Source: Gonapodya sp. JEL0774 (Eukaryota). Taken from it: a stretch of 32,540 nucleotides of DNA. The notes under the pieces are model-generated. The model was given only the letters and a program-made list of their open reading frames with translations. It had not been told where the DNA came from and searched no databases. Both the position numbers and the translations under genes were made by a program. The stretch spans positions 1 through 32,540 of the forward strand of contig JADIIX010000193.1 in assembly GCA_027604505.1 (NCBI GenBank), read 5' to 3'. Shown piece by piece: positions 128-30,266 of the stretch (within the stretch, counting starts at the first letter, position 1; each line of letters opens with the position of its first letter).

Positions 128-769
128 GTGTTCTTCAAACCAAAGAACACCCTCCCACTGACATCTGCCAGATTCAACGAGCGCAGGGCACGCCTGAGAA
201 TGCTGGTAGCGTTGATGGGGATCGCAAAGGAGGTATCGGGGGCCACCCTGATTCCTGGGGGTGTGGTGATGGTGGTGGTCCCGTCTGTCGATGAGGACAA
301 GGTGCGCACTGCTGTCACCACCAAGGGGTTCACTCTCGTGTCTGAACGAGATGTAGACCCATTTGCTCGACCGGCCCACTCACGGAACGTGGAGGCAAAG
401 GATACTGAGATCACCGCAGGATGACTGGCTGACATTTGTCGGTTCTCTTGGTCACGGGAGTACCACGAGACGGTGATGAGAGGGGCACCGGAGTCTATCT
501 GTGCAGCCACCCTTGTGGAGTACCGGAAACTCCTGCAGAACCCACATGCACTGCTGGGACACGCAGGGCGGCACTACCACTGGGTGGCATCTGACAAGGA
601 GGGAGATGCAGTAATGGGCACTAGCACCACTGCACCTGGGGCTGTGGCACCAGCAGTGAGTGGAGCAGGGAGGTCCCCCAGTGGGGTGATGGGGCGGAGC
701 ATTGAAGCAGGCGTCAGCGCCAGCTTGGGAGCAGGGGAGACCACCATGCCGGCATTAAGCCACGCATGA
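128..769 (+). pseudogene. LINE ORF1 remnant
   Basis: ORFs 128..424 and 473..769 are in the same frame, separated by one TGA at 422-424 (probably CGA>TGA). The stop TGA 767-769 overlaps the ORF2 ATG 766-768. Confidence 0.6.
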
Positions 770-3700: not shown

Positions 3701-4145
3701 GTCTCTATTGGGAGAGAACTTTGAGACGAAGGCAAACGAGACAGTGGTGTCTGCAATTCGAGTTAGACCAAACGCACGACCTCACCAGTACTTGGAGACG
3801 CGTTCAACAATTAAGCGTGAGGATCGGGTGACCATCTCGCCCTGGCAAATGGGATTTGTCTCATCCCATGAGGACTGCATCAATTGTGATGATGGAGTCT
3901 GACTGTTGAGGGATCATGTGATAGAGTGTTCTGGAGTTGGACCGGCAGTGGAGAGGTGCCTGCAGTCAATCTACCCCCTGCCGCACGTTCTATATGGTAC
4001 CAATGTCATGGATCACCTGATCAACTGTGCAGTGTTAGATATGGGTCCAGTAGTGGTCAAGACCTTGGTGGATGCTATCAACAGGATGGAGTGGTGCTGC
4101 CGTGGACGTGCCAGGATGGAGTCGGGGTTCTTTCAGGTGCCCTAA
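766..4145 (+). pseudogene. LINE ORF2 (endonuclease/reverse transcriptase), disrupted
   Basis: Frameshift in G-runs near 950-990, TAG at 1508-1510, frameshift near 3450 and TGA at 3900-3902. The pieces join into one APE-RT-zinc knuckle polyprotein. Confidence 0.9.
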
Positions 4146-9900: not shown

Positions 9901-10701
9901 TTAACAACCGAAACAGAGGCACTTTCATCACAAGAGTGACGCCAGATCACTTCACCTTTTTGGAAACAATAGTTCGTTCCTTGTTGTACTCCTTAATGAC
10001 ATCGACTATTTCACTGTTGAGCTTATCAGCAAGTCTTCCGCGGAACTGGGCTTGTTTCTCAGATTCAGAGAGAAATATCGAGAAAGCATGCTGTGGTAAT
10101 CTAACGATATGAGAAGGGCAGGTGGGAAGCCGAACTTGAAATGCGAAGGAGGGTATGTTTGCTCACCTCACACCCTCTTTCGCCCCGTCCTTCGATTGAA
10201 CTTCAGCGCCACCTCCCTCACTCGCCGAACCAGAGCTCAAAGAACCAGACGCGCTTCTGGGCACTAGCGCTGACAAAACCCGCCTCTTAGATGCGAAGGA
10301 TTTGCTGAGACGCTCAAGTTTGGCCTGATAGTCCTGTTCAATCTCCGCCCTCCGCCTCATATAGTCACGAATGTTGTCGAGTGTTGCGATGTCTTCATCA
10401 GACTTTGCGCCGATTCTTTGCCACTGATGATCGCCATGGTTGGCATCAGCAAAATTCAAAGAGTTCGTGGAAACAGGTGTCGGTTGAGAGAAAGCTTTGT
10501 GTGATCGAGCAATCCAACAATCCCTCACTTGCTGTTGCTGATTCGACCTGAGAGCTTTGGTGAATTGATGAAACTCTTTGGCATTCATTTTTGCCGCGTG
10601 GGCTGAAGCTTGTCCTGTTAAATTATGTTGAATTCACAAGGGTCGATTGGCTTTGGGTTGCGGCAGTATCCACAGTAATATACACCTGAACCCATGTCCA
10701 T
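6993..10701 (-). CDS. F-BAR + HR1-like coiled coil + four SH3 domain protein (Bzz1/FCHSD/NOSTRIN-like), about 20 exons; start at 10701 (via intron 10685-10615) or at 10588
   Basis: Spliced translation gives F-BAR motifs (RRRAEIEQDYQAKLERLSK; DARNDYLLAL...YYSLDLPSLMK), an HR1-like segment (GLSQMVNAYSKTPEFGN) and four SH3 domains: ALFDY..GELS..GWVK..GLVPANYV; AVYDH..TELSF..WWEG..GQFP; AKFDY..GELSM..WWEG..GQFPNVYV; ALYDY..DELSF..WWEG..GVFPKTYVQKV*. Stop TAA at 6995-6993. Exon phases are consistent. Confidence 0.9.
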
Positions 10702-11743
10702 CTTTGCAAAAGACGGATGGGTCTCAAGGGCTCTGGAGCGAGCATCTAAGAAGCTTAGACGCGAGGTGGAGCTCAAAATGAGTCGACGCAAACCTACCGA
10801 TTGGTTCTGACGGCCCTTCTCGGCGCATGAATCACATCCATGGCCTCGATTCAACGTTCAAACGCTTGGCTAATTCTTTTAGATCGATAAGAATCCGGTA
10901 TTCCCATTCACCCCAAATCAGCAGGAGAGCGGTAATGAAGCAATGAACAGGTCTTAGGCAAATGCGGGTTGACGAATCGCATTTGCACCTTCACGAAATA
11001 GCTCTCGAACTACGAATAAAACACAATGAGCTCCACTGGTGTATCAGCGGTGTTATTGCGTCCGTAGGCGTAATCGTAATTTTCGTTGCAAGGGGTATGG
11101 TCACGCACGTGAGTAGCAATGTTGTCAAGAGAGAGAGCGTGGCCAGGTAGATTTTACAATGGTATCTTGCATGAATGTGCTAGCAATACTTCCTATTGCC
11201 ACTTCTCGTTTTGATTGTCAGCGGGCTTGGCGTCTACAACTACAAGGTTCATTGTGTTCTGCTGCCGTTCCATGTCGTGAACTCTCACCGAATGTTTACA
11301 TAAGGACACACGAATTTTGAGGCTATACCCACATCATTGTGTTTATACCTTCTCTCGAAATTCAACCAGTTCTGTTCAAGGCGACTATTACAACATTTAC
11401 ATCCGCATCCGCCGAGATGTGAAATCTGGTGTGGCTCAATTTTTCGGTTTCTTTGGACTTAAACGAACATGTCACTGACGGGGAGCTGACAGGACTGCAC
11501 CAAAAATATTTTCTGGTCCTGAACGGATTCCAAATTGACGCTTACCGACTTTGTGGATCAACTTCGAACCTTTCAGTAAGTATTTCGTCGATTTCAGTGT
11601 GTAGAAATCCGCTCACATGAACGTAGGAGCTTCGGCAAGTTGGACAAGAGCTTGCGCGCAACCTAGACTTAAATTTTTGGGATGTGGCAAATGCATCTTC
11701 TCATCATCATATTCGCCATGTACCAGGGGAATCTGATGGGTGA
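10694..11743 (+). CDS. TMEM249: TMEM249-like (CatSper auxiliary subunit family) two-TM protein, 7 exons, about 204 aa
   Basis: Exons 10694-10765, 10883-10931, 11002-11108, 11184-11246, 11305-11428, 11493-11575 and 11627-11743, all GT-AG and in phase. Protein: ...IDKNPVFPF...two hydrophobic segments...YNIYIRI...YFLVLNGF...LRQVGQELARNLDLNFWD...HHIRH. The family was recognised from memory of TMEM249 motifs. The first and last exons are less certain. Confidence 0.72.
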
Positions 11744-11898
11744 GGAACGAAAATGTTGCGGTTTTAGTCGAACATTCTAGTTCGTGCGGGAAAAAATAGA
11801 ATGTGGTACCCCGTTGAGGTGTTCGAGGCCAGAAAAGATGAAGAATCGATTACCTTTATCACTGATCTGTTCACCTTTTGTTTGATACACATTGAAAC

Positions 11899-14800
11899 AT
11901 GTTGAAGAGCAAGTCCTTCGCAAAAAGGGATCGCAAGGGCAACGTGGTGACCGTTGTTCGAGAGCATTGTAGGTCTTCGGGAAGCTGATACCACAATGAT
12001 GTGCGAGTGTTCACCAATCACACAGACCTCCGGGACGATATTTGGTGCTCTATCCAAGGATGCCGAAAATGCCAGCATACTGATCCCGTGCTCGCAAACC
12101 CTCCATCTATGAGAAGCCCGTTGGTTCCAGGACCTCATTACTTGGTAGCAGACACCAACGTACTCTATCACCAGGTGAAGTACCACTTATCGAATGAATT
12201 TGCAGACTGTTGCTCGAGAACCAATCACTGTCGGTAATAGATTGACGTCGTTGAGCACACTGCCTTCAGGGATTTGATTATTCCGCAGACTGTTCTGCAG
12301 GAGCTTCGACATCGGAGTGTGCCTATTTATAACCGCCTTCGTTCTCTCATGAACGATCCTGGTCGACGGATGTATTTGTTTTCGAATGAGCACCACAGGT
12401 TTGTTTCTATTGATTGCTCAGTTCACCGTGTCTTGTCCGCACTGGAACCAGTGTGCACCGTCAGGGAGACGTACGTGGACAGGGAAAAGGATGAGTCTGA
12501 AAATGACAGAAACGACCGTGGTGAGCCGGAACTTCTGATTTGGAACGTTTACTTGGTCTCAACCATCGTGCTGCTTCAAGCGATTCGGGGAGTCACAGCT
12601 TGGTATCAATCACATATTCGATTGATCCAGCCATCCGGGCAGTCTTTGAGGGTCGCTCTGCTCACTAATGACGTCGCAAACAAAACGAAAGCAGCTCAGG
12701 AAGGTCTCACCGCTTTCTCTGGTTGGTTTCTGCTCGATTTCTGAATGGATAAGCGCGCCAGAGATCTAACGTTCCAAAAGTCTCGGAGTACGTGGAGTCA
12801 TTGACAGATTTTCCAGATTTGGTGGACATGGTGGCAAATGCTGTTGATGATTCAGAAGCAACCGATCGGACAGCCTTTGAGGATGTGAGTTGAATGAAGC
12901 TAAATTAAGAAATCGTCACTACAATTGGTTGATGTGGCTAATCTTTTGGCTCACTGTCTACCTTTCAGCATCTGACTCCTTTGCAAATATCTGCAGGTCT
13001 CAAGGATGGGTCACTATTGCAGGGTGTTGTGCGCACGCTGTCTCACAACAATCTCGAGGCGACAATATTTGCGGTCGTTGATGGTAAGGAGACAACTGTC
13101 GTGCTCGGAGGCCGGAAGTCCTTGAACAGGGCTTTCGACGGTGACGTCGTTGCTGTGCGCCTCCTTCCGCGGAGTGATTGGAGAGCGACAGTGTCAGAAG
13201 TTGCTATTGATGATAACGACGGTAAGGGATGCCACTGACCGCTCCAGAGAACTCTATTCAGATACTCGGCGTTCTACGACAGATGACGAAACTCTACTGG
13301 AGGAGGACGAATCTAGTATGGTCGTCGACAAGGTCAAAGATGAAGCTACGGCTGCAACCACACCAACAGGAAAAGTGGTGGGGATAATTAAGCGAAACTG
13401 GCGTCCATACTGTGGATCCATAGACCCGGCGACAATAAATCAAATGGCATCAACTACCTCAGCGCAAACACTGTTACTCCACCCAATGGACCGACGAATT
13501 CCTCGAATTCGATTTCGCACGCGACAAGCGAGTTTCCTCGTTCGAAAACGAATAGTAGTTGTTGTGGATTCTTGGAACAAGAATTCACGATATCCTTCGG
13601 GACATTTCGTGAAGGTCCTGGGCGACGTTGGCGACAGGGAAACGGAAACTGATATGCTGTTACTCGAACATGAAGTTCCCTTCACGCCGTTTACACCCCA
13701 AGTACTGAAGTGCCTTCCTCTGGAGGGCGAGGATTACAAAATTCAAGACAGCGAGATTGCGAAGAGACGGGACTTCCGGTCCCTAGACATCTGCAGTATA
13801 GATCCACCAGGTGCGCGATATCCGGGAGGTGGCTGTTGACACGTCAGATCTCCTTAGTCTTCTTCACTAGGGTGCACGGATATCGACGATGCCTTGCACT
13901 GCTTGCAGTTACCGAATGGGAATCTCAGCGTCGGTGTCCGTGAGTGATCGCATTGCGCGAATGATGAATAACTCTTAAAGAACTGTCTTTCAGATATCGC
14001 CGATGTCTCCCATTTTGTGATGGAGGGTAACGCAATGGACACGGAAGCTGCATTGCGAGGTCAGTAGTCAAAATGAGTTCCTTCTGACACCCTGCTTGCA
14101 ATAACCATGATTATCACTCTAGGTACGACAGTCTATCTGGTTGACAAGAGAATTGACATGTTGCCTGCGTTATTGGGAACCAGTGAGTGATAGGAGGCAT
14201 AGTTGCACAGAGGGCTCATAATTTGACTGGGTCACGCCCGAAGACTTGTGCTCTTTGCGCTCAAATGTCGATCGACTCGCATTTTCGTGCATCTGGGTGA
14301 GTTTTTACGATATGTTGTGACTCCTAACTCCCGTAACTTGCCGTTCGCAATTTTGGCCAGGAAATGACCCACGACGCCGAAATTGTGGGCGTTGAGTTTG
14401 CAAAGAGTGTTATACGCTCAAAGGCGTCCTTGACGTATGAAGAAGCTCAGGCACGGATGGACGATAGGTGAGGCGCACTTATCTGAAGGTGGGGCGCAAG
14501 TTCATTGCCGATGTTTCCCCAAAGCCTGCAGACCGATCCTATTACCACTGGCATCCGCAATCTGAACAAGTTGGCCAAAGTACTCCGGTCACGCCGTATT
14601 GAAGGTGGTGCTCTGACACTTGCTTCACCCGAAGTTCGGTTCCGCTTGGAAAGGGATACGAACGACCCAGTGGACGTTGGTGAGGGCCATTGCATCAATT
14701 ACGTACCTGTCTTTTTTGTGGCTGACACGTCATTGGCACTCGGCAGAAATGAAGGAGCTCAAGGAAACAAATGCTCTGGTGGAAGAGTTTATGCTCTTAG

Positions 14801-15912
14801 CCAATATTTCAGTCGCAAAGAAGATTTTTCAACATTTTCCTGACTCCGCGATGCTGCGGTGAGAATTTTCTAAGAACGCAATCCAATTTTTGGCGGTGCT
14901 GTTGAAACGCATATTGTGCACTGCGATGCAGGCGTCACCCCGCCCCTCCATCCTCTAATTTTGATTCACTAAAGAATGCTATCTCAGAATCCTTTGGGTT
15001 TGATCTGGATGCATCTTCTTCTTCATCTTTGGCCCGTTCTTTGGACAGAGCCGTGGTGAGTAATTTATCACCCCATGAATCCACCTATCGTGGAAACCTG
15101 CCGGTAATAGCCACCGCTTAAATCAAGGTTTCTGGAGACCCTTACTTGAATACTCTGCTCCGCGTCCTCACAACCCGATGTATGATGCAAGCTGTCTACT
15201 TTTGCTCTGGCACTATCGCCGAACCGGAGTTCTGGCACTATGGCCTTGCTGCACCCATTTATACCCACTTCACTTCACCTATCCGACGCTACGCTGATGT
15301 CATTGTGCATCGTGAGTTATCCGCTGCTATTGGGTACGGCACATCGGCGGTCGCGACGACTGTATCACAGGCCCTGACAGACAAGTCTCGTATGCGGGAC
15401 CTTTGCGAGAATCTTAATCACCGACATAGGATGGCGCAATTGGCGGGTCGGGGGTCGGTCGAGCTATACACGCAGTTGTTTTTCAAGGGCAAGAGTTTTG
15501 AGGAAGTGGCCTATGTAACGAGAATCCTCAAGAACGGATTCATTGCACTGGTGCCGAGGTGGGTCTTCGTAGAACTCTCGCCATCTACTGCTTATCAAAT
15601 ACTTACTCTTGGGATGAATGAAGCTACGGTATCGAAGGTATCGTATATATCTCCGCTCCAAACTCCACCTCTGCCCTTCTTCGCTACGACGAGCAGGCAA
15701 ATTCGCTCACTTCGCCAGACCTCAATATCACGCTGCGTCTCTTCTCCCGCGTTAAAGTTCGAATTACAGTCGAGGAGAAGGGTGTGGCTGGGCTACGGTC
15801 CAAGCTCACCATGACACTTGTGGAGCCTCATGTGCCGGGATTGGCTCCAGATTATGTGAAGGGAAAGGGTGTGGCGGACAATCAGAGAGGTGTTAAGAGA
15901 AAAACACGTTGA
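11899..15912 (+). CDS. DIS3: Exosome catalytic subunit DIS3/RRP44 (PIN endonuclease + RNB exonuclease + S1), multi-exon
   Basis: N-terminus [39 protein letters not shown] (CR3). PIN motifs [25 protein letters not shown] motifs [15 protein letters not shown] and [21 protein letters not shown]. Stop TGA at 15910-15912. Confidence 0.97.
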
Positions 15913-16329
15913 AAATAGTTTCCACGGCCCTGTGAGCCACTGATTGGGCTGTTTTATGGGAAGCTCAACAATGCATTGATCTGACATTTGCGTTATGGCA
16001 GAATTGTACAGAACATGAGAGAAAAATTATGGCTCTCCAAATGGGATCACATGGCGTCACCGGCAATCACCAGACCGTATTGCGAAGAGACTGTGGTGTC
16101 CGGTACATATTGTAGACCGAGTGAATCCGTCCTCAGAACGAATTAGGACAAAACACACACGGTTGCTCAGACGTCACAAAAAGAGGGCAGATACCAGGTG
16201 GAGCTGCTATTGTAAGCTGTCTCACCCTGCACAAGCACATGGAGGGTTTCTACATCTGAACCCTCCTGAACAGATTCACATTCCATTCTACCATCCGCCC
16301 TCCGTCTGCTTCCTCGCTCTGATCCCTCG

Positions 16330-18205
16330 CTATGTCCATGAGCAACACGAGTTGGTCTTTTTCGCTGTTGTGTAGAACAGTTTGCTCTGTTGCGACAGCA
16401 TGTCGGACCGCGCGACCAGGTCATCGAGCTTTTCACCACGTTGGAGGAGAGATTCCATGGTTTTGTGCTAGGAGAGACGGTGCATGTTGTTTCGGCATGC
16501 TGGAAACTTTGAAACACGTCTCAAGTACAACTCACAAGCACGATTTTGGTCTCGTCGAGTTCTTTTTGAACGCGAAGGAAGGGATCTGTGAAGTTTGCAT
16601 GAGTGAGGACGAAGTTAACGGCATTGTCATGGTCATTGAGACGATGACAACAGTATGGCAAGAATCCCGAGCACGAAGGGTTCAAATCCTACGACCATGG
16701 ATAACCGCAAGCCACAACAAGAGAAAGCAATGACAGTGATATGGCCATCGCAATAGACGGGCTAAAATTCTTCTGCAATGTCCACGCCAACTCTTGCACA
16801 TTTTGGCACACCTCAACCGAACCACCAAGTCCATCGTGTGCTCCACTCTCCGTGTTAACCATCGTGCTAAATTCCTTAAACTTTTCATTCTCTGGATGCG
16901 GGCTTTTAAGTTTGCGCACAATGGTCCAGCATTCTACAGGTACCCGTCAATCCAACACAGCGTCGCGGCCTCACTAACTCCACTACCGATACTCCCTCGC
17001 TTTCAAATGCTCCAGAATAGAAATTTCGTCAAGCAGAACTTGTATTCGAGAAGAACAGAACTTGCCCTCGAGAAGAACGTAAACCAACTCCACGTGTTGT
17101 CGTCCCCCAAAACACACCTGCTGCATGCGGATCCTGAAACTTCTGCACATATCCCTTGAGTTCCGGCCACACCTGCGGTGTCTTACTGGGCTCCAAGGTT
17201 TTCCACTGGCTTTGAGCAAATTTTGCAAGAAACTCGTCCAGCACTTTGCTCAAGATGGAGAACGCGGCACGAAGGGGGTATTCTAGGTCGGTAATGAGAA
17301 TGCCAGTAACACCTTCTGGGCGGGCATGGACGAATGCAACGACTTTCTGGTCTGGGGGAAGAGGGATCCAATAGGGGTGAGCTCATAAACGAAGTCCTCA
17401 TATCGTGGAGGCCGGCTCAGGCACGAAGAGTTCAAGTAAAAACAAGGATGATCCCATTATTCAAAACAGCTCGGGGTGTTGTGGCCTTCCCACAGGCGGA
17501 TGAGAGGCCGGCGCGAGGACGGGTTACAACCCAAACACGATTTCGACCCCTCTTTCTCATTCCATTCTGGTGGAATACTCTGTTTCTGGCGCACCACAAG
17601 AGCATTTTGAGGTGAGGGAGACTTGCTCCTCCCACTCCCCCCTCGAAGCTTGAGAGGAAACTGAATGAGCCGTCCCCTCGGCGCTCCCGCAAAGAGCCAG
17701 TCAGCATTGCCTCACTGATCCAGCCACTCCAACGATCGCCCTCACACCGAACAGACACAACGACGTGTCCAACCCACTCGACAGTTCGAGCTCTCGGGTA
17801 CTCGCGAGCCTATTATGTTGATATGCACTGATGGTCTCCTCCAGACGTTCCTTGCAACTCATACTTGCCCTCATAGGGAACTGTCTGCTGTCCTGGACCA
17901 GAGAAGATCGTTCCCTTGAACTGTACTCGCCTTGTTGCTCAACCTTCTGCCTCTCCCCGGACGCAACACGTTCAGCGAGCGTTCGGGACGTGAATAGAAG
18001 AAATTCCTGAACTCTGAGAGGGCACAGAAAGGTGAACGCCGAGAAGGGATGGGTCATTTCATATCCCACCCGTGCAATGAGTGGTGAAGATTCCAGAAAC
18101 ATACGTTCCGCGCTCAAAGAAGCCAAACGAGGAGAGGTCGAAATCCGAGAGCAAAATATTCGCGGGAGTGCCTTGCTGAACGATTGCAACACCGAGGATC
18201 TTCAT
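16330..18205 (-). CDS. YKT6: Longin R-SNARE Ykt6, 5 exons, 201 aa
   Basis: Exons 18205-18105, 18013-17931, 17351-17118, 16585-16536 and 16467-16330 total 606 nt. Protein: MKILG...[19 protein letters not shown]...[12 protein letters not shown]...[41 protein letters not shown]...[11 protein letters not shown]. Confidence 0.95.
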
Positions 18206-19701
18206 TTGGAGTGTACGATTTGTGAGAAAACGATGCCTATCGACATTTTGCCGCTTCGTGCCCGTCCACGGCGAGCAGACGCAAACTTGACACAAGTCCG
18301 TGTCTTCAGCTTCACTCTATAACAGGCATGGGGAACTGTAGTTTTAAAATCGTGCTTGAACTCTTGCGATCGTCCTATTTGTAACCTGTTTCAAGCAGCA
18401 AGTAAAAGAGTGGACACTGGTATCAATCAAGTAATAAGTAGCTAGCTCATGAAGGGAACAGTAAAATTAAGTGAGGGGTTCAGATCCACGGAGAGCGGGA
18501 GAACAGAAAGATCTATTTGCGGTTAGTTGTCATGCCCTCGTGTGGGAGAGCGTGGCACTGCAACCACAGCAAGTCGGAGTGTGGTTGGAGAATCCGATTG
18601 CCAACAGACCCAAATCATTTCCCAACATATCCCAAGCTATTCTCGAATCTCGTGACATTTCGCTTAAATTGCTCCTCGTTGGCGAAACACCACATGGTAC
18701 GGCCCTGCCATCAACGGCTCCAACCTCTCTCTGATGGTCCTCACACTTCATTAAAAGGCCGGTACTCCCACTATCCGAGCGCGTAATGCTCAACATCAAT
18801 CTCTCGCAAAGAAAGGAAAGGCTCCTTCTGCAGTAGAAGCTAAAAGGGAATCGAGAATCCCTGTTGGACCTTGGACGCTCGCGCTCTTCCTTTTCATTGT
18901 GGTTGGAGGGTAAGGATCTCTGCGTCTGCACGCTCTCCATCAAACACTTCAAGGGTGACCCCATTTTGAGTGTTACTTGAGCAGAGAGAATACGATGGCA
19001 GATTGCCAAGCGGTGTGTAATCGGCGGTGGAACACAAGTGTCGAAGTAAGCTCTAATAGCTTGGTGTGGATTGCTTTGGACTTGCACCATCTTTCATCTT
19101 GGATGGCACGAGTGATGACCGTCTGATGAAGATCTCAAACGCATCAAGAACGAGTTGAATCATCCACGCCCCCTGCCCCCCACCAATACATTCCGCTTTC
19201 CTCACTTGCTCTAATACATTTCGCTCTCCTCGCTTGCTCTTCAGTGTACTCTTTGAAATGGTTTCACGACTCTACAAGATTGCTTGAAGTCCTCCATCTC
19301 CGTCCAATATTTAGCTATCTTCTCTCTGTCTCTCTTTCCTTCCTTCAACTGTCTGCGAGGTATTGAGGGCCCATATCGGATCCGTGACAGATTGGTGCCT
19401 GCGATGAGTACAGCATTTATAGAGTGCCCGCGGAACGCGGAACTACGACAACTTGCACTTTTGTACGGCATAGAACACTAATCGGATTCTGTGGACGTCG
19501 AAAGAAAAGAGGGAAATGTTGTACGACAGGATAACTTGTAAACCCGCTGTTTAACGGGGCGATGAAGGAATGCACGCTTTCCATTTGTGTATTACCATTG
19601 AGATTATTGGATCGTGCTGTGTGTAACAGCCGGTGATATGACACCTGCCCCCACTCATCAAGCATCCCCCCTGACCCCACATCACAATCACGCACAATCA
19701 A

Positions 19702-20504
19702 ATGCCCACTGCCCCTCCCGTCAAGATCGATGTTGTGTACTGGTCTGTTGCCGACCGTCAAGATTGCCGTTCCCCTCGAGATCGTTTGCCTCAGACAAGC
19801 TGACCCAGTTTGCACCGTTACTTCATAACTGTCACCCCTCGTCCACTCTCATATCTTGCAAACTCCGTTGATTGTCGTAGTGGTGCCTGAGGGTATGTAC
19901 AACTCTTGCAACCTCATTCCCTTGGGAACCAAAGGACTTACTGTGTCGTTGCCCGATTCGCCTGCCGGTTGCCATCACATTCACTTCCACTTGCCAATCT
20001 CGAACGTTAAGCTACGGGAAACGGTACGTCCGCACTGCTATAGCCTGACCTGTTCAGAACTCTTGAACTCGCACCCTTCACATCCCAAATGTGTACAACC
20101 TTCATGAAACACGATCAGCTATGCTCAATTTGCACGTGAGCTGAAAGCCCAATTTGGCGACCAAGTCCTCATTGTGGGTATCACAGCCGGAGCTTGCGTT
20201 TCACTGCGAGTCTACAACACTGCTTGCCGATGAAATCCCAAATGTGCTCCTGACTCCTCATTGACACAGGTCGGGACAGCTACCTCCAACGTCTCAGGAA
20301 AGTTTGAAGTCCAAGTGAATGGAATGATGGTGCATACTAAGGTTGGAGGAGGGGGTTTTGTCGATGGTGAGTGTAAACTGTTGGGAGAGGCAGTTGTCGC
20401 CAGAGATTACTGAACACACGTCACCACTTCTGGATCTGGCAGATGAAGCCAAGTTTGAAAGGATTGTCAATGCCATTAATGCTGTGCTGGGGACTACCAA
20501 CTGA
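19702..20504 (+). CDS. SELENOW: Selenoprotein W (SELENOW/Rdx family, CxxU), in-frame TGA at 19888-19890 read as Sec; 6 exons, 92 aa
   Basis: Exons 19702-19742, 19881-19892, 20012-20023, 20119-20173, 20270-20366 and 20443-20504 (279 nt, all GT-AG, in phase) give MPTAPPVKIDVVYCGAUGYGKRYAQFARELKAQFGDQVLIVGTATSNVSGKFEVQVNGMMVHTKVGGGGFVDDEAKFERIVNAINAVLGTTN*. This aligns by eye along its whole length with animal SelW (VVYCGAUGY...G.FEV.V.G...H.K..G.G.VD...KF...V.AI.A.L). Confidence 0.92.
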
Positions 20505-20562
20505 AGCACAGCTGTCGTTCAGGACTCCATGTGTCTTGTCCAGCACACCCCCACTCTTCTTT

Positions 20563-20699
20563 CTCAAGTCCAATGCATGAAGACATCAATCAGGAAAATT
20601 ATGCTGTTTTTTTGTGAGCTCTCCCTACTTCTTTGTAGGGTGCCTGCAAACAACCAGCCTGGTATGATGGTTCTGATAGTAAACAATGGAGACTCTGAG
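20563..20699 (+). promoter_or_regulatory. Candidate SECIS element in the SELENOW 3' UTR
   Basis: ATGAA at 20577-81; helix II GACATCAATCAGG (20582-94) pairs with CCTGGT(A)TGATG(GT)TC (20658-73); unpaired AAAA at 20595-98; TGAT at 20674-77; helix I CTCAAGTC (20563-70) pairs with GACT(C)TGAG (20691-99). Paired by eye. Confidence 0.65.
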
Positions 20700-20827
20700 T
20701 AGATCATAAAGTGGGGCAGAGCATGGATTTGAGATATAATGAATGCATAATTATCCTTGCAAGAGTTTTGTGGCTCAAGAACTCTCAAAGTCTCAATTCT
20801 AGGGACAAATATCTGTATTCAGTTTCC

Positions 20828-21006
20828 TGCTATGACAGCTCATCTGGGCGTGGTCGGGCAGAGGTTCTGTGATGGGATGGGTCGGAACAGATGGGAATCG
20901 GTGCCGGGAGTCCAAGATGTAATCTCCTTGATGAGTGGTGTGCCGATCAAGTAACCACCGTACAAATATATATCTACACTAAATCCGTAGCGCTCGTCAT
21001 ACAACA
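20828..21006 (-). repeat. 3' LTR of the Gypsy element (about 179 bp)
   Basis: On the minus strand, polypurine tract GAAGAAGAGGGGGGAG (21022-21007) is followed directly by TGTTGTATGAC. The other end reads GTCATAGCA, giving TG...CA ends with short imperfect inverted termini. Confidence 0.65.
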
Positions 21007-23120
21007 CTCCCCCCTCTTCTTCAAGAGCGAGTCCCACTCAAGCAAAGTGGAACTACATATGAAATAGTGCGCAGCGTCACTCCAGCAGGCCTTGCGCTTG
21101 CAAAAGTTTGTGGTGCTTCTCAAATGCCTTCTTCTGGGCACGGCGGGTGAGAACCTTGCCGTTAGGTGCTGGGTGCTTCTGTTTGCATGTGTCAATGAGC
21201 TCATCTGCAGAGATGAGACTTTCGGGCTGCCACTCAGGGGTTGTGTACCCTCAAAACTTGATTCGGTGTCAGGTTCCACCATCTTGTCAAGGATAGCCTT
21301 GACAACATAGGTTGGCTGGAAGTCTGGTCCCAGCTCTTCTTGGGTAATATCACTCTGTGCAATCTCAGGTGAAACAGGTTGGGCCAACTCAGCTGTAGTG
21401 TGAGGAGGCAATGCAGCCGTCCTTTTAGGATTAGGCACGTAATGGGTGATCCATGGCTGGTAATGGCACATTTGACTCATTTGTGTTCTAATCATGTGCT
21501 CAGTGCTGATATGGCTGAGCTGGAAGATGTTCTCACTCTCCTTCTCAGTCATGTGATAGGGCCCAATCCACTTAGATATGAGCTTAGTGCCCTCCCCTGT
21601 GGGACGGGACTCTTTGTAGCACAACATCACCAGCTGGTTCACATCAAATGGGGTGGTCACAGCTGCAAGAGCACCGAGCTTAACAGATGTCACAGGGTGG
21701 GGCTTTAAGACAACTGTGCCTGTCCAGCGACAACAGGTGACAATATCCTGGGCAGCACACATGGCACCATGAAAGCCTTCTATTGTAATATCCTTGTTGA
21801 GGACAAGATCAATGTTGTGGCAGTGTGTGTTGCCAGTTTCAATATGCACAGAGGTCTTAGTGCCAAGCTTGCCGTCATCAGCTTTGAAGGCAATCCATCC
21901 TTCATCGTAGTCAATTACGGCATGCCAGATTCGAAGGAAGTCCACACCCAAGAGGATTGGATAGGGAATGTTTTTGATAACCACGAGGCAAAGTGCGTGT
22001 TGAACACTGGCAAGAGTGATGGGTAATAAGACTTGCCCAAGTGGAGCGGTGATAGCACTGTTTCCTACAGTGATTGGCTGCAGATTCCAGGGCTCAAGTG
22101 GCATCATGGAGAAGTATTGACGGTAAAAATTACCACTGACTGCTGACAGGGCAGCACCAGAGTCTTGGATGATGTCCATCTGTGGAAGTGTACCCACCGT
22201 ACCTTTAATAGTTGCAGCTATCCTGATATTAGCATAATCAGGAGGATTTCCATTACCATGAAGTTCGACAAGCATGCAATTAATTTCTTGGTGTGATTGA
22301 GAGTAATCAACACGCTGCTTCCTGGGGGGAGGAAGGGCACTTCGGGGGACTGTGTTGCTAGTGACAATATTAACCTCTGGTGGTGATGGAGCTTGTTGTA
22401 TGACCACTGAGTCGACATGTGGGACGTAGTGTAGTGTAGATATATTTTTGTATGACACGTTCACATAGCAGTCCGACAGGACTGGACACACAGAATACAT
22501 ATACACTCGGGACCTGATTCTCGTCCCACACCCCCGTCATTCCATAGGCTGAGAAAGGGGTCGCAACAGAAAGCTTGCTGTGGAAGGGACCACATTGGAA
22601 AAGCGACCCTTGCAGCCACGGTCCAGTGAAGGGTTTGCTGCACCCTTCACCAGGCAGTGAGTGCCTCGAGGCAATCCCACAACAACATGTGCGCTGATGT
22701 TGAGCCCAGGCCGTGAACCACTTAACAGTTGTACAGCAGAAAACTGCTGCATAACCTAAGGGTTACTCTGACCACTAAACCTCTCGAACAAGTTGCTGGT
22801 CTACGCCATGCAGTACTTGGTGGGTGAGCATTGCCGCCAGGGCCATGTTAGTGGATATTCTGGAATGGAGTATAAGGCCAGATCTGGTGTGCATCATTCT
22901 GCAAGGCCTAATATCAGCTCAAATGTCAAATGTTTTCCCTCCTTGAATGCCACTCATTTAATTGATTTGGACACAATGTCTGCAAGTCTTCCTTAGAGTC
23001 TGGGTTTGTGGATGTGCAGATCAGTGCCTCCACCAATATCCACAAGTTCCTGGGCAAAAGGCCAACAACTTTTTTGCATTCATGCATCCTTCCTGTACTA
23101 TAAGTAATCTGACTCTGCCT
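20828..23120 (-). mobile_element. Ty3/Gypsy (chromovirus-like) LTR retrotransposon remnant, internally deleted; 5' boundary approximate
   Basis: ORF 20974..22506 has an aspartic protease (IQDSGAALSAV...ILLGVDFL) and a GPY/F motif (KLISKWIGPY). A frameshifted chromodomain follows (YVVKAILD...IKF*GYTTPEWQPESL), then the PPT and LTR. No RT, RNase H or integrase core is present. Confidence 0.85.
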
Positions 23121-23274: not shown

Positions 23275-24469
23275 CACGGCGGCGGATTTTATGTGCATTC
23301 CGAACAGAGAAGTTTGGATTGCTCAGAATCTGAGCAGAATATGACCAGAATATGAACAGTATTATTCAGATTTTCTTATCAGAATCTGATCAGAGTGCTC
23401 TTAACAGAATCTGACCAGATTGTCATGGTCAGGTTTTGGGGACCACAAGAATCCGAAGTTCTCTGTTCAGAAAGGGGTGGTTTCCTCCAGAGACGGTTCA
23501 TGATTTCATGAACCCACGTTGAAGAAGCGCTCGCACGCTGAAGAAGCGGAACGACGCAGGACGGTATCTCAATGGACTTTCCTTTTGTACTCAAAGATTG
23601 TGGAACTGTGTGTGTTGTGTGTGACTCCCGCTGCTGCACCTTGCGCCGGCAGACCGCCAAAAGCATCAGCAATTCCTCCAGAACAGTGAGCTGGACAGTG
23701 TCCATACTGTGCTCGGTGATGAAAAAGTGGGTGGAGAGACGCTGCTGGACGCGCAATCGGAACCTGACCCAGTGGTGCACGCGGAAGCACACGTGTTGCT
23801 TGACAATCTCTCCAAATTTTGAGCGGGAGCTGGACCGTTTTTGGGTGCAAGCCATCACCAAGAAATTGATCAGCCTGAACTTTTTGGCTGGGATTTTGGG
23901 CAGGATGGCTTCGAATTGGGGGACGCTGTCGAACTGGCTCGGTCTGCACCAGCAGGGCACAAACAATTCCCAATCATCGAGGCCTTATGGGACTCTGCTG
24001 AAAACAATGAAGTAGTCCAGAAGCGCAGAAAGCACCGGGCTGGTGCCAGGGATCCCAGGAAACCATATCTCTCGGGACTCGATCTTCTGCTCACCCTCTT
24101 TCAAGCATCCACTGCCCATCCACCCTCTCGCAACCTGTTCTACTTTGTATGTTTTCTTGCAAAGTATTGTCAAGAACATCTGCATGACACTATGCCTTCC
24201 CCAGACCACGTTTGGAGTCGCGTTGACTTGCGAATCCCTCCGGATATCATGCCTGGCCTCTCACAAGCAGTTGTCCAAACAAAGTGAGGACGTAAAACCA
24301 TCCATTCCATCTCCCTTGTGTCAATGGCTAAGCTGGTCGTTGGTGATCCCAGCCTTGCTCTGGCGCTTGGCTTTCTCCCTGAAATCAACACCTCTGGGGG
24401 CATCAAAAACATCCAACAAGCAGTGGCTTGGCACACAGATTCCTCGTGTCAACTTATGAATGTTCGGCA
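23275..24469 (+). mobile_element. Truncated CACTA/CMC-like DNA transposon (left end plus 5' part of transposase pseudogene)
   Basis: Begins CACGG and carries subterminal 11-mer repeats CAGAAT(C/A)TGAN (about 23324-23415). A long + frame (about 23625-24469, TGA stops near 23820 and 24285) ends GDPSLALALGFLPEINTSGGIKNIQQAVAW, resembling the NP...L.FYPE...Q...W motif I recall from fungal CACTA/Plavaka-like transposases. No right TIR. Confidence 0.5.
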
Positions 24470-24901
24470 GACTTCTGGATTATGAGACACTGCTTGTTGA
24501 GAGAGCAAGAACTCAGTGAAACAGTCAAAAAATATAGCGGCAGGTAGTTTCGATCTACTGACTTCCGGGTTATGATACACTGCTTGTTGAGAGGGCAAGA
24601 ACTCAGTGAAAAAGTAAAAAAAACATAGCAACAGGTAGTTTTGATCTACCGACTTCCAGGTTTTGAGACACTGCTTGTGGAGAGAGCAAGAACTCAGTGA
24701 AACAGTGAAAAAATATAGCGACAGGTAGTTTTGATCTACCGACTTCCGGGTTATAATGCACTGCTTGTTGAGAGAGCAAGAACTCCTGAAAAAGTAAAAA
24801 AATAGCAACGGGTAGTTTCGATCTACCGACTTCCGGGTTATGATGTACTCTGTGGTCAGGTGAGCAAGAGCTCATTTGAAAATGGAAAAACTGCAGTGAC
24901 A

Positions 24902-25041
24902 TGTTGTGTACCCGTGACATCTGGCCCCCTGGGTGGCCACAGACTAGTATAAATACCCACATGTACTAGAGACACTAGCAATATACATACGAGTACTCGA
25001 GACTACGTCCGGACCCACGGAACCGTCACGGTTACACCACA
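24902..25041 (+). mobile_element. 140-bp solo LTR (or MITE) inserted in the satellite
   Basis: TG...CA ends. The 5' end TGTTGTGTACCCGTGAC matches the reverse complement of the 3' end, TGTGGTGTAACCGTGAC (15/17). TATAAATA at about 24948. Flanks GACA/TACA are an imperfect 4-bp TSD, and the satellite unit resumes in register. Confidence 0.75.
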
Positions 25042-26372
25042 TACAGGTTGTTTTGATCTACTGCCTTCTGAGTTATGATGCACTGCTTGTTGAGAGAGCA
25101 AGAGTTCATTTGAAAAAGTGAAATAGTATAGCGACAGGTAGTTTCGATCTACCAACTTCCGGGTTGTGACACACTGCTTGTTGAGAGAGCAAGAACTCAG
25201 TGAAACAGTGAAAATATATAGCGACGGGTAGTTTCGATCTACCGACTTCCGGGTTATGAGACACTCTGTGGTCAAGTCAACAAGATCCTTTGAAAAAGGA
25301 AAAAGTATAGCGACGGGTAGTTTCGATCTACCGACTTCCGGGTTCTGATGCACTCTGTGGTCAAGTCAGCAAGATCCATTTGAAATGGAAAAAAATATAG
25401 CGACAGGTAGTTTCGATCTACCGACTTCAGGGTTATGATGCACTCTGTCGTCAGGTGAGCAAGAACTCATTTGAAAAAAGGAAAAAAATTAGCGACGGGT
25501 AGTTTCGATCTACCGACTTCCGGGTTATGATGCACTCTGTCGTCAGGTGAGCAAGAACTCATTTGAAAAAGGGAAAAAAACTAGCGACAGGTAGTTTCAA
25601 TCTACCGACTTCCGGGTTAATGGTTATGAGACACTGCTTGTTGAGAGATCAAGGACTCAGTGAAAAAGTAAAAAAAACATAGCGACAGGTAGTTTCGATC
25701 TACCGACTTCCGGGTTATGAGACACTGCTTGTTGAGAGAGCAAGAACTCAGTGAAAAAGTGAGAAAAACATAGCGACAGGTAGTTTCGATCTACTGACTC
25801 CCAGGTTATGAGACACTGCTTGTTGAGAGAGCAAGAACTCAAGTGAAAAAGTAAAACAAAAGTAAAAATTTATAGCGACAGGTAGCTTCGATCTACCGAC
25901 TTCCGGGTTATGATACACTGCTCGTTGAGAGAGCAAGAACTCAGTGAAAAAGTGAAAAAATATAGCGACGGGTAGCTTTGATCTACCGACTTCCGGGTTA
26001 TGATACACTGCTTGTTGAGAGAGCAAGAACTCAGTGAAAAAGTAAAAAGCAAGTAAAAAGTTATAGCGACGGGTAGTTTCGATCTACCGACTTCCAGGTT
26101 ATAAGACACTTCTTGTTGAGAGAGCAAGAACTCATTTGAAAGAAGGAAAAATATTAGCGACGGGTAGTTTCGATCTACTGACTTCCGGGTTATGATACAC
26201 TGCTTGTTGAGGGAAGCAAGAGCTCATTTGAAAAAGTAAAACAAAAGTAAAAAATTATAGCGACGGGTAGCTTCGATCTACCGACTTCCGGGTTATGAGA
26301 CACTGCTTGTTGAGGGAAGCAAGAGCTCATTTGAAAAAGGGAAAAAATCTAGCGACGGGTAGTTTCGATCTA

Positions 26373-28801
26373 CACTCGGCTCTGCCTAATTTGACTCAAC
26401 TTGGTCGACACAAAAGGGGGTCAAATAAGGCAGAGAATCAACTTAGTCAGAGGGCATAAATTTTCGTGAATTGCAGGCCTTTAAAAATACCAGTATACCT
26501 ATACAATATTTTAGAGCCTCAAGGGAGTCTTTTCACGCTCAAAAATGTTGTCAAGTTTGTCTGCCGATTGGCTGACAAAATGTGGTGGTTGGTATCCCTC
26601 TCCAACCGACCAAGAAAAAAATCCAGCCGCCTGGCATCAGCCCCTCCCTCAAGCACCAAATACTCTCTGAGCAGCTTTGCTGCATTCAAGACGTCTCTAC
26701 CGGATGGACGCGACTCAATTTCCTTGCCATGGAGCTCCTCCTCATCAATGGTCTCTTCTTCGGCCATCACAGAGGTGAAGATCTCCTCAGGGGTTTCCAC
26801 AGCCGAGAACGTGCCATCCTTGCTGTCTGGGTTCAGGAGAAAGTCCAGACTCATCTGGTTTCTTGGGTGCAGGACGTTTTGCTGAACCAATGCATCGAGT
26901 GTGGCTTTGATTTCGACCCCGGCACTCATAAGTTCGGCGTTTTGGTCCCTTATGACCAACACGGTTAGCTTTGAAATCGAAACATCAAGGAAAGAGACCT
27001 CCTACCCAATGTGTTCTGGTGTGGGAATGATTTTGGTACTTGCCCAACAGTTCTTCACGGTTTCCGGTGAAAGCCCCTCCCATGCTCTCTCAACCATCTG
27101 GATAGCCTGCAGAATGTTTAAGTTGTAGATCTCCGTGATGGCAACATTGTCGTTGTATCTTTTCGAGGCGTAAGTGCATTGTTCACGCCGATAGTGGGCT
27201 TTCAAAGTGCGGATCACACCAGCATCAAGCGGTTGGATGTAAGTGGTCATGTTAGGCTTGAAGAGCTCGACACCAATGTTGGTGACTCCCTCTGGCATTT
27301 GGTGACCAGCAAAGTTGTCGACAAGTAAGAGAATTTTGCGGCCTGCAGATTGAAGATCACTGTCCCATTTTAGAAGGTACTCCTGGAAGAGCTCTAATGT
27401 CATCCATGCTGTTTTGTTGTACCTCCAGTAAATTCCAAGCTGACTCCCTGCTTTCCATTGAAAGGGCCGTGGTTTTGCAGCGTGACCAATGAAGAACAGA
27501 GGTCGCTTCTCTGAACCATCTGCATTAACACAGAGAGCGACTGTGAAGCGTCTTTTATCCACTTTATTCCCACTAACTCTTTTTGCTTTCAGTCCCCTGT
27601 CGGGCTCCATACTCCAGAATAAGCCAGTTTCATCGAGATTGAAAGTGTCTTGCAGAGCAAACATAGCAGGTAGAGGTTTCAAACATTCCTGCTCCCGCGC
27701 AACCTCTTCTTCGTCTGTGGATCCTGCCTCTCCATGAGCAACGTGTTGTTTTAGCATATTTTTTGCTTTCAGTGACGTCAACCAACCGTCACTGAAGTCC
27801 ACTTGTTTTGCTCCATCATTCTCGCAAAAGTTACATATTGCGCTCTGATCATCGCTCCAGCTATGAGCAACTTTTTGTTGATAGCCTGCTGTATCCATTT
27901 GTCCATCATTTCTGTGAGTTGTGGATGTTTCCCCTCCCCAACGCAATTAACTGTCGTGCTGCCCACTGCAGCATCATTCGTGTAGATTTCTTCCTTCCTC
28001 TTCTTTCAGTTGCTTAGAGAAGAAGCGCTAATGTTGAGTCCAAGTTTCTTATTCCATTTTTCGCATAAGGCCTCCCGTTTTAGTGTTGGGTTCGTATCCA
28101 GACAATCTCTTAGAATTGTCTCATGCTCTACTATGGTAGGTTCCCGTCCCTGACGCTTCTTCTTTCTGCTTTCTGCGCTCTCGTCATTCTGAGCAGGCAA
28201 ATCACACTTTTTGGAAGGGGCGTTGGTGTTGAAGGCAGTTGCCCATGTCGTTATTGTCGATTGCAATGTAGCTGAAGGCGTTTGGCCCTCTAATATAGCA
28301 TCAGTAGGGTATTGCTTGCCCATGCGACTCTTGTTTCACTCACCAGTGGTTCCGTTCACAGAAATCAATCTTCCGATTGCCTGTTGTTGTTCCTCACCCA
28401 TCCTTGAGATTTCATCTGGCAGATCCCGCGGGAGCACGTTTGCAAGCTGTTCTAGAACAAGAATCTAATCCACGAGATTCAATGGCCCGTCAAGCTCATC
28501 CAGTTCCGAAGCAGTGGCAATGCCATCTTCTTGCTTCCCCTCAATTTCCCTCCGCCTGGCATCACTCCACGTCTTTAGAGACTTGAGTCCTTTTGAAAGA
28601 GAATTGTGGGTGATTTTGGACGTATCCATGGTGTTCTAAACAAGAACGGGGATGGTTTTGGTGCCCAGGCACGCTCTTTACAATTTGACTTTTGGTCAAA
28701 TTACAGTCAATATCACTATGTCTTTTTGTGGTCAACAGGTTCTGGCGTCAAATAAGGAAGAGAATCAAATTGCACAGAGTCAAAATAGGGAGAGTCGACT
28801 G
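26373..28801 (-). mobile_element. Full-length pogo/Tigger-type (Tc1/mariner superfamily) DNA transposon, 2429 bp
   Basis: 25-bp TIRs CACTCGGCTCTGCCTAATTTGACTC and CAGTCGACTCTCCCTATTTTGACTC (21/25). TA duplications at 26371-72 and 28802-03. The satellite unit continues on both sides. Confidence 0.93.
26519..28629 (-). pseudogene. pogo transposase (CENP-B-type HTH + DDE_1), frameshifted
   Basis: HPQLTEMMDKWI (CENP-B HTH), FSDGWL, FNLDETGLFW, LLVDNFAGH and QPLDAGVIRTLKAHYR are spread over several frames. The start is approximate. Confidence 0.9.
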
Positions 28802-30266
28802 TACCAACTTCCAGGTTATAATGCACTGCTTGTTGAGAGAGCAAGAGCTCATTTGCAAAAGGAAAATGTATAGCGACGGGCTGCTGACTTCCGGGTTATG
28901 AGCCACTGCTTGTTGAGAGAGCAAGAACTCAGTTGAAAAAGTAAAAAAAATAGCGACAGTAGTTTTGATCTGCTGACTTCCAGGTTATGACACACTGCTT
29001 GTTGAGAGAGCAAGAACTAATTTGCAAAAGGAAAAGATATAGCGACGGGTAGTTTCGATCTACCGACTTCCGGGTTATGATGCACTGCTTGTTGAGAGAG
29101 CAAGAGTTCATTTGAAAAAAGGAAAATATAGTGACGGGTAGTTTTGATCTACTGACTTCTGGGTAATGATGCTCTGCTCGTTGAGAGAGCAAGAGCTCAT
29201 TTGAAAAAGGGAAAAATTATAGCGACGGGTAGCTTCGATCTACCGACTTCCGGGTTATGATGCACTGCTTGTTGAGCGAGCAAGAACTCAGTTGAAAAAG
29301 TAAAAAAATATATCGACTGGTAGCTTTGATCTACTGACTTCCAGATTATGATGCACAGCTTGTTGAGAGAGCAAGAATTCAGTTGAAAAATATAGCAACG
29401 GGTAGTTTTGATCTACCGACTTCTGGGTTATGACACGGTGCTTGTTGAGAGAGCAAGAACTCAGTTGAAAAGGTAAAAATATAGCGACGGGTAGTTTTGA
29501 TCTACCGACTTCCGGGTTATGACACGCTGCTTTTTGAGAGAGCAAGAACTCAGTTGAAAAGGTAAAAATATAGCGACGGGTAGTTTTGATCTACCGACTT
29601 CCGGGTTATGATGCACTGGGACTGTCTATAACCCATGGAGTACTGAGGTAATGACCTCTATCGATGTGACCCACAGTCAAATACAGTCTCTTACATTCTC
29701 TGCTTCAAAATTGTCCCCAGGAACGACCCCCGCTGTAATCCCTCGTTTTTGAATCATGTCATTTCGCGCAGATGCCCTCCGGGTCCCCGAGCAGTCTTTT
29801 AGTTTGTAGCTCACTTCATGTTGCTCTCTTGCTCAGATTTTTCAATTATCTGGATAAAATGGATATATCAAGTCTCTATCAAGAGTTGAACTATTGTCTC
29901 CCTGCTTCTGTGTCTGTCTCCTGCCCTCTTGACTTGGTACTACCTCCCCAATCAGTACATCATCTTGATACTACCTATTTCAAAGTCCCTTAATCATCAC
30001 AAGATCACGCTACGCAAATGAAATATCACTAGACTATGATGTTTGGTGCGTTATCTTTGACCGTACCTCTTTTGTGGACTTTCACCGGCTCTGTTCAGGG
30101 TATGTTCCAGGTTAACACAAATGAAATCACTCTTTTCCACGATCCAGGACGTTTCAAGAGTGTCAACGACACTTCATTTGCTGCAAAGGAGTGTGAGGAT
30201 AATGAAAGACAACAGAAAACTCTATTCTGAAAAGACGGTGCTCGGCTCCATTAGCTACCTCAACTA

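What the first reader, a model, noticed from the sequence alone, without database searches (positions are those of the whole stretch)
19702..20504. Hidden selenoprotein W gene in a fungal-type genome, with the Sec UGA in a 12-nt micro-exon
Seen: six GT-AG exons join in phase into a 92-aa protein beginning VVYCGA-TGA-GY. The TGA sits exactly at the U of the SelW CxxU motif, and SelW similarity continues downstream to the true stop. Exons 2 (TGGTGCCTGAGG) and 3 (CTACGGGAAACG) are 12 nt each, so ORF finders and standard annotators miss the gene. Established: most fungi lack selenocysteine, and Sec use has been reported only in a few early-branching lineages (Mariotti et al. 2019, Nat Microbiol). 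Inference: this organism recodes UGA as Sec and should carry the Sec machinery elsewhere in its genome.
Basis: partly seen in the sequence, partly recalled or inferred. Interest (0 to 1): 0.93.

Follow-up and report, generated by a model that had tools for sequence, protein, structure and literature searches.

The report
Overlooked selenoprotein W gene in Gonapodya
A water fungus of the genus Gonapodya, which is already known to use the amino acid selenocysteine, carries an intact six-exon gene of the selenoprotein W family whose in-frame UGA likely encodes selenocysteine in a tiny 12-base exon, a family that I did not find in the published fungal lists I could read.

Summary
Six GT-AG exons join in frame into 92 codons, with one TGA at the CxxU site inside a 12-nt exon. 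This splice model ranks first of 9,270 against a profile built only from other organisms. All 27 related loci covering the site also have TGA there (27 of 31). The protein lines up without gaps with mouse SelW.

The contig is Gonapodya, and G. prolifera is a published selenocysteine user, so Sec use itself is not new. The likely new point is the family: SelenoW is not among the seven fungal families in the Mariotti preprint. The final Nature Microbiology version could not be read.

No canonical SECIS lies downstream, by a scan that finds one in 9 of 9 control loci. The preprint reports the same gap for 11 of 16 fungal selenoprotein genes. A retroelement remnant starts about 310 nt after the stop. 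Splicing, expression and Sec machinery in this assembly could not be tested.

Verdict: a real, probably functional selenoprotein W gene; new member of a known kind; interest 0.5.

The parts
19702..19742 (+). Exon 1 (41 nt coding), ATG to the first two bases of the Cys codon of CxxU; phase-2 intron follows
   Evidence: mammalian SelW exon 1 also ends just before CxxU (PMC3316567)
19881..19892 (+). Micro-exon 2 (12 nt, phase 2/2) holding the predicted Sec codon TGA at 19888-19890
20012..20023 (+). Micro-exon 3 (12 nt, phase 2/2), holding the conserved Tyr after the motif
20119..20173 (+). Exon 4 (55 nt); phase-0 intron follows
   Evidence: the same intron position is seen in locus L001
20270..20366 (+). 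Exon 5 (97 nt) with the Rdx GxFEV signature and the SelW-type VH(S/T)K...GxG(F/Y)VD stretch
   Evidence: Pfam Rdx E=0.005; TIGR02174 E=7.8e-6; PDB 2NPB SelW E=0.0018
20443..20504 (+). Exon 6 (62 nt), ending in the true stop TGA at 20502-20504
   Evidence: by-eye match to the 2NPB C-terminal part printed
20505..20813 (+). Presumed 3' UTR; no canonical SECIS; best AA-bearing core starts at 20664 with a weak helix (score 6.5; controls 8-12)
20832..20887 (+). AA-less SECIS-like hairpin candidate, at background frequency and probably inside a putative LTR; not accepted
20814..22536 (-). Degenerate Ty3/Gypsy-like remnant facing the gene's 3' end: weak aspartyl-protease and Tf2 SH3 hits, purine tract about 21004-21021, putative LTR 20814-21003
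   Evidence: Pfam hits E about 0.09-0.2 only; short terminal inverted ends; element identity and LTR limits are inferred

Best explanation
This is an intact six-exon selenoprotein W (Rdx family) gene of a Gonapodya fungus, whose in-frame UGA in micro-exon 2 is likely decoded as selenocysteine to give a predicted 92-residue CxxU thiol oxidoreductase. Shown: the exon-intron anatomy, the open frame, TGA at the conserved Sec site, family identity, and TGA acting as a normal stop elsewhere on the contig. Inferred: (1) both 12-nt exons are spliced in; (2) the genus's eukaryotic Sec machinery (tRNA-Sec, EFSec, SBP2, PSTK, SecS, SPS) recodes the UGA through a divergent, non-consensus 3' UTR signal, as proposed for most fungal selenoprotein genes; (3) the product folds like SelW and cycles a Cys14-Sec17 selenenylsulfide in the cytosol to reduce partner-protein cysteines, with 14-3-3 proteins the known mammalian partners; (4) the gene was inherited vertically from the common ancestor of fungi and animals and lost in most fungi.
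For: The splice model ranks 1 of 9,270, 7.9 bits above the best TGA-free chain. TGA sits at the same site in 27 of 27 related loci that cover it (31 fetched, many near-duplicates), with no Cys form. Exon 5's best PDB hit is mouse SelW 2NPB (E 0.0018), ahead of MIEN1 2LJK (E 0.033). By eye the spliced protein matches 2NPB residues 5-84 with no gap and 36 of 80 identities. The tree places it with the SelW-type rows that include the intron-bearing loci, apart from the intronless bacterial-like loci and the MIEN1-like row (92/94, unstarred). The contig is Gonapodya: Dis3 is 99% identical to a protein labelled Gonapodya sp. and 84% to G. prolifera. G. prolifera has Sec machinery, and 11 of 16 fungal selenoprotein candidates lacked a detectable SECIS. 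Intron 1 matches the mammalian exon-1 end at residue level; intron 4 matches locus L001. All ten splice dinucleotides and the family motifs are intact.
Against: No canonical SECIS: a scan that found one in 9 of 9 control loci found none on the + strand between the stop and position 31022. No stem-loop above shuffles around the UGA in the spliced mRNA (z +0.2 to +1.0). A retroelement remnant begins about 310 nt after the stop and could have cut the 3' UTR. The gene's own stop is also UGA. The intron-1 donor (GTCTGT) differs from the commonest Dis3 donor pattern, and the introns are longer (76-138 nt) than Dis3's 13 introns (54-84 nt). The end branch is longer than the median (0.8 vs 0.35). Mariotti et al. 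searched G. prolifera for all known families and did not report SelenoW.
Confidence: 0.82

Rival explanations
1. A recently disabled selenoprotein W: the TGA is an ancestral Sec codon, but this strain can no longer recode it, because the retroelement insertion removed the SECIS or the lineage lost Sec machinery. The mRNA would stop at codon 17 and be degraded.
For: No canonical SECIS; putative LTR about 310 nt after the stop; machinery unverified in this assembly; Sec loss is frequent in fungi, at least 10 events.
Against: No sign of decay in the frame, splice sites or motifs. SECIS absence is the rule in fungal selenoprotein genes (11 of 16). Control SECIS cores start 58-216 nt after the stop, within the stretch left before the putative LTR.
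Confidence: 0.1
2. The gene is spliced so that the TGA is never read: exon 2 is skipped (in frame, since it is 12 nt, phase 2/2) or a cryptic exon at 19935-19967 is used, giving a Sec-free Rdx-like protein.
For: Skipping exon 2, or exons 2 and 3, leaves an open frame. 2,803 of 9,270 chains have no TGA. A hairpin can pair exon 2 and its donor with intron 2 (z -2.1 on a 69-nt window picked after the fact).
Against: The best TGA-free chain scores 7.9 bits lower. Exon 2 has a strong donor (GTATGT) and restores the family motif exactly, which chance gives about 0.0008 times in that interval. The hairpin falls to z -0.4 on 101 nt.
Confidence: 0.05
3. The TGA is a strain-specific nonsense change of a Cys codon, a sequencing error, a genome-wide TGA reassignment, or the stretch is foreign DNA.
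For: Single assembly; no reads were listed to check it.
Against: Relatives have TGA, not Cys, in 27 of 27 cases. TGA ends Dis3. The neighbouring Dis3 gene is fungal and labelled Gonapodya, and intron-bearing RAMP4 and Longin-domain genes lie beside it.
Confidence: 0.03

Closest known systems
Vertebrate SELENOW / SelW1 (mouse structure PDB 2NPB; Pfam PF10262 Rdx; TIGR02174)
   Same: CxxU motif near the N-terminus, GxFEV signature, about 90 residues, gapless match over 80 positions with 36 identities; first intron just at the CxxU Cys.
   Different: Six coding exons, two of them 12 nt, against five coding exons plus a SECIS-bearing UTR exon in mammals; no canonical SECIS; Val where mouse has Cys37, the glutathione-binding residue (role recalled).
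Fungal selenoproteins of Mariotti et al. (bioRxiv 10.1101/314781; Nat Microbiol 2019): SPS, AhpC, MsrA, DI-like, TR, SelenoU, SelenoH
   Same: Same genus as G. prolifera; TGA aligned to a known Sec site; SECIS undetectable, as for 11 of 16 of their candidates.
   Different: SelenoW is not among the seven families in the preprint. The preprint mentions a G. prolifera fragment similar to the SelenoH C-terminal domain, which might be the orthologue of this gene (speculation). The final paper's list was not seen.
Algal and protist SelenoW (unnamed loci L001-L025; Bigelowiella protein P0127; PMC7539508)
   Same: TGA at the same site; 24-50% identity; database entries P0125-P0127 lack the N-terminal motif, as expected if annotation starts after the UGA.
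   Different: The nine tested have canonical SECIS-like hairpins; 11 of 27 loci have UxxU instead of CxxU; their introns are fewer and mostly elsewhere.
SELENOW2/MIEN1 (PDB 2LJK) and SELENOH
   Same: Same Rdx family and motif position.
   Different: Weaker match to MIEN1. No RKRK nuclear motif and not the 14-kDa size of SelenoH (PMC10650576). No SelenoH sequence was compared directly.

Membership tests
Rdx (SelT/SelW/SelH) family | N-terminal CxxU/CxxC motif | tested here: met
   C14-G-A-TGA17; aligned with TGA in 27 of 27 covering loci
Rdx (SelT/SelW/SelH) family | C-terminal tGxFEI(V) consensus (PMC10650576) | tested here: met
   Present in exon 5
Rdx (SelT/SelW/SelH) family | Whole-protein score above the curated cut-off of PF10262 or TIGR02174 | tested here: inconclusive
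   Only exon 5 (32 aa) was scanned: 17.5 vs 22.6 bits and 26.1 vs 34.2. The whole spliced protein scores 77.2 bits on a profile of related loci, two of which pass the TIGR02174 cut-off.
Rdx (SelT/SelW/SelH) family | Thioredoxin-like fold | not tested
   No model made; inferred from the gapless match to 2NPB
SELENOW (SelW1-like) subfamily | Closer to SelW than to MIEN1/SelW2 or bacterial SelW-like proteins; small size | tested here: met
   2NPB is the best PDB hit; tree split 92/94, below the starred threshold; 92 aa
SELENOH | About 14 kDa with an N-terminal RKRK nuclear motif | tested here: not met
   92 aa, no such motif
Eukaryotic selenoprotein gene | In-frame TGA aligned with a known Sec position while TGA is otherwise a stop | tested here: met
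Eukaryotic selenoprotein gene (canonical recoding) | Consensus SECIS in the 3' UTR | tested here: not met
   None by a custom scan that detects 9 of 9 controls. The Rfam negative is uninformative, as Rfam also found none in 10 control loci. So it is not filed as a canonical SECIS-bearing gene.
Eukaryotic selenoprotein gene | Sec machinery (tRNA-Sec, EFSec, SBP2, PSTK, SecS, SPS) in the same genome | not testable with these tools
   No genome held; no tRNA in the window; present in the congener G. prolifera
Eukaryotic selenoprotein gene | Expression, splicing and selenium incorporation | not testable with these tools
   No sequencing run was listed

The most novel reading that the evidence does not exclude
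This is the first fungal SelenoW, kept from the fungus-animal ancestor with shared introns and recoded without a consensus SECIS, and its symmetric 12-nt Sec exon is a regulated switch: skipping it under selenium shortage removes the UGA in frame, so the cell makes a Sec-free isoform instead of a truncated, degraded message. The first clause alone (first fungal SelenoW) I put near 0.6; the switch has no direct evidence.
Probability: 0.07. Interest if true: 0.85.

Novelty: new member of a known kind. Interest (0 to 1): 0.5.

Why it matters
Fungi were long thought to lack selenoproteins, and only nine species and a handful of families are on record. A SelenoW hidden by two 12-nt exons suggests the fungal selenoproteome is undercounted for a technical reason. 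It would also place SelenoW in the fungus-animal ancestor. How fungi recode UGA without a consensus SECIS is an open question that the preprint said needs more genomes. A second Gonapodya species with a short, bounded 3' UTR makes a direct comparative and reporter test possible.

Tried and rejected
Whole-genome search for Sec machinery: no genome is held. Sequencing runs: none was listed, so no junction test; this is no evidence either way.

Fungal orthologues: no hit labelled fungal in three searches (0 candidates, 6 hits, 10 of 48 candidates). Most hits are unnamed and sensitivity is low, so this does not show absence. Three of the 6 hits were long repeat proteins and were dropped as spurious. 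The ESM Atlas gave only sub-0.9 Rdx leads.

SECIS: the Rfam scan was negative but also missed all 10 control loci. The candidate at 20832-20887 was rejected: it has no apical AA, such cores occur at 0.65 per kb in the window, it is not the minimum-energy fold (z +1.2), and it probably lies in an LTR. The candidate at 20664 was rejected for a weak helix. No covariance model was built, because the control alignments were poor. The custom scan's threshold was set after seeing the controls, which were 9 of 31 loci chosen as eukaryote-like, non-redundant and with 3' sequence.

Other structure tests: no stem-loop around the UGA. The exon-2/intron-2 hairpin was not robust to window choice. The 65-codon open frame after the stop has no Pfam match, nor do the short pieces from exons 1, 4 and 6 or the cryptic exon; exon 6 alone has no meaningful PDB hit. 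A genome-wide TGA reassignment was rejected.

Earlier findings: nothing on this genome or sequence.

Full report
Observation. The window was read directly and the exon model rebuilt by coordinates. Exons 19702-19742, 19881-19892, 20012-20023, 20119-20173, 20270-20366 and 20443-20504 are each separated by a GT...AG intron (138, 119, 95, 96 and 76 nt). They give 279 nt: 92 codons and a TGA stop, with one internal TGA at codon 17 (19888-19890), three codons after Cys14. Exons 2 and 3 are 12 nt and phase 2 on both sides.

Chance. The exon-2-type pattern is expected 0.14 times in the whole window on both strands (2 seen) and the exon-3-type pattern 3.5 times (3 seen). In the 375 nt where they must lie, that scales to about 0.0008 and 0.02 (my arithmetic). 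I enumerated every GT-AG chain from the ATG to the end of exon 4, with exons 5-6 fixed and no TAA/TAG: 9,270 chains, 2,803 without TGA. The next three also keep the TGA exon, and the best TGA-free chain scored 69.3 (which corrects one mis-framed reference row; the top rank was the same in both).

Organism. The Dis3 gene 4 kb upstream is 99% identical to a protein labelled Gonapodya sp., on a contig of the window's length, and 84% to G. prolifera. That protein maps exactly onto the window with 13 introns of 54-84 nt and ends in TGA. So TGA is a normal stop here and the contig is a monoblepharid fungus. No whole genome is held, no sequencing run was listed, and the window has no tRNA gene.

Family. 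Exon 5 alone hits Pfam Rdx (E 0.005), TIGR02174 (E 7.8e-6) and, in the PDB, mouse SelW 2NPB (E 0.0018) ahead of MIEN1 2LJK (E 0.033). Both profile scores are below the curated whole-protein cut-offs, as expected for 32 residues. Comparing by eye the spliced protein with 2NPB residues 5-84 as printed gives no gap and 36 of 80 identities; 2NPB shows Ser and Cys at the two motif sites (that these are engineered is recalled). A metagenome scan gave 31 related loci. In 27 the site is covered and all 27 have TGA there, 11 as UxxU; four are not covered. Many loci are near-duplicates, about 15 distinct by my grouping. In a 23-row tree the protein falls with the SelW-type rows that include the intron-bearing loci, apart from six intronless bacterial-like loci and a MIEN1-like row. 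Support is 92/94, not starred; it has no supported sister, and its end branch is 0.8 against a median of 0.35. It lacks the size and RKRK motif of SelenoH (PMC10650576 passages), but no SelenoH sequence was compared. No window-encoded or fungal-labelled protein appeared in three searches, consistent with the gene being unannotated.

Gene structure. Mammalian SelW takes 9 residues from exon 1, ending just before CxxU (PMC3316567 passages), the same residue position as intron 1 here. Intron 4 lies at the same phase-0 position as an intron in the unnamed eukaryotic locus L001. From recall only, vertebrate SELENOW also has an intron at that place; two searches gave no text to confirm it. Intron 2 lies one base from an intron in L008, which I do not count as shared. 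Together these favour vertical descent, but weakly.

Recoding signal. Rfam found nothing but also nothing in 10 control loci. A custom scan (RUGA core, helix II, AA 9-16 nt on) found a hairpin in 9 of 9 chosen control loci, 58-216 nt after the stop, and none on the window's + strand between the stop and 31022; the background is 0.14 per kb. Its threshold was set after seeing the controls. An AA-less candidate at 20832-20887 recalls the AA-less G. prolifera AhpC elements. However, such cores occur at 0.65 per kb, it is not the preferred fold, and it probably lies in a putative LTR at 20814-21003 of a degenerate Gypsy-like remnant (weak Pfam hits; ends inferred). No stem-loop above shuffles flanks the UGA in the spliced mRNA. 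This is the main evidence against my reading. It is softened by the preprint, where only 5 of 16 fungal candidates had a SECIS.

Mechanism. Most likely (0.82) both micro-exons are included, and the genus's Sec machinery recodes the UGA through a divergent signal. The product would be a small cytosolic thioredoxin-like protein with a Cys14/Sec17 redox pair, acting like SELENOW on protein thiols; mammalian SELENOW binds glutathione and 14-3-3. Splicing, recoding, fold and activity are inferred, not shown. Rivals: a recently disabled gene (0.10), TGA-free splicing (0.05), and error, nonsense mutation or foreign DNA (0.03). Exon 2 can be skipped in frame, which is the basis of the speculative switch. 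The hairpin over it is not robust (z -2.1 on 69 nt, -0.4 on 101 nt). A regulated fungal micro-exon has a precedent in Trichoderma Xlr2 (PMC11121469, search listing only).

What is known. I read the whole text of the Mariotti preprint (10.1101/314781), without figures or supplements. It reports Sec machinery in G. prolifera and seven fungal families (SPS, AhpC, MsrA, DI-like, TR, SelenoU, SelenoH); SelenoW is not among them, and it mentions a SelenoH-like C-terminal fragment in G. prolifera. The final Nature Microbiology paper (nine species) is not held; its figure and supplements may list more and bear directly on novelty. Passages of citing or related papers named no fungal SelenoW: PMC11378755, 10.1101/2021.02.26.433065, PMC7435645, PMC12611240, PMC10386755, PMC13373617, PMC7539508, PMC8559351, PMC13134290 and PMC10778597. 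PMC4911915 passages gave nothing relevant. Seven literature searches listed no such report. The library lacks most subscription papers, so this is not proof of absence.

Verdict. A real, intact SelenoW-family gene with a well-placed Sec codon, in a genus already known to use Sec. It is probably a family new to the fungal selenoproteome, hidden by micro-exons, with an unexplained recoding signal. New member of a known kind; interest 0.5.

Noticed in passing
window 24466-26362 and 28802-29586: Arrays of a roughly 90-nt repeat (24 copies in all) flank a DDE_1 transposase ORF (27002-27946, minus strand) in the same orientation on both sides, not inverted.
   Followed up: no
window 30267-32316, minus strand: Frameshifted ORFs with NDC10_II and GCR1_C domains, resembling a Crypton-type tyrosine-recombinase transposon (name recalled).
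   Followed up: no
window 706-3724, plus strand: LINE-like element: endonuclease and reverse-transcriptase ORFs broken by stops and frameshifts.
   Followed up: no
window 18773-19286, plus strand: Small intron-bearing RAMP4/SERP1 gene about 420 nt upstream of the SelW start; its first exon was not located.
   Followed up: partly
window 7721-17382: Conserved neighbours useful for synteny: F-BAR/SH3 gene (minus), Dis3/Rrp44 (plus) and a Longin-domain SNARE gene (minus).
   Followed up: partly
window 20505-20702: The frame stays open for 65 codons after the gene's terminal TGA; no Pfam match. Probably chance (a few percent), but notable in an mRNA that recodes UGA.
   Followed up: partly
window 20961-20981 and 22432-22452: A 21-nt inverted repeat, with a shared 11-nt start nearby, suggests two related LTR-like ends in opposite orientation.
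   Followed up: partly
L003-L007, L018-L021, L023, L025: Eleven loci encode UxxU-type SelenoW with two TGA codons; one such case is described for Ostreococcus in PMC7539508. L023 and L025 are AT-rich and form a separate branch.
   Followed up: partly
L024:235-500: Divergent Rdx protein with TGA at the Sec site but no Cys three residues before it, and a SECIS-like hairpin downstream.
   Followed up: no
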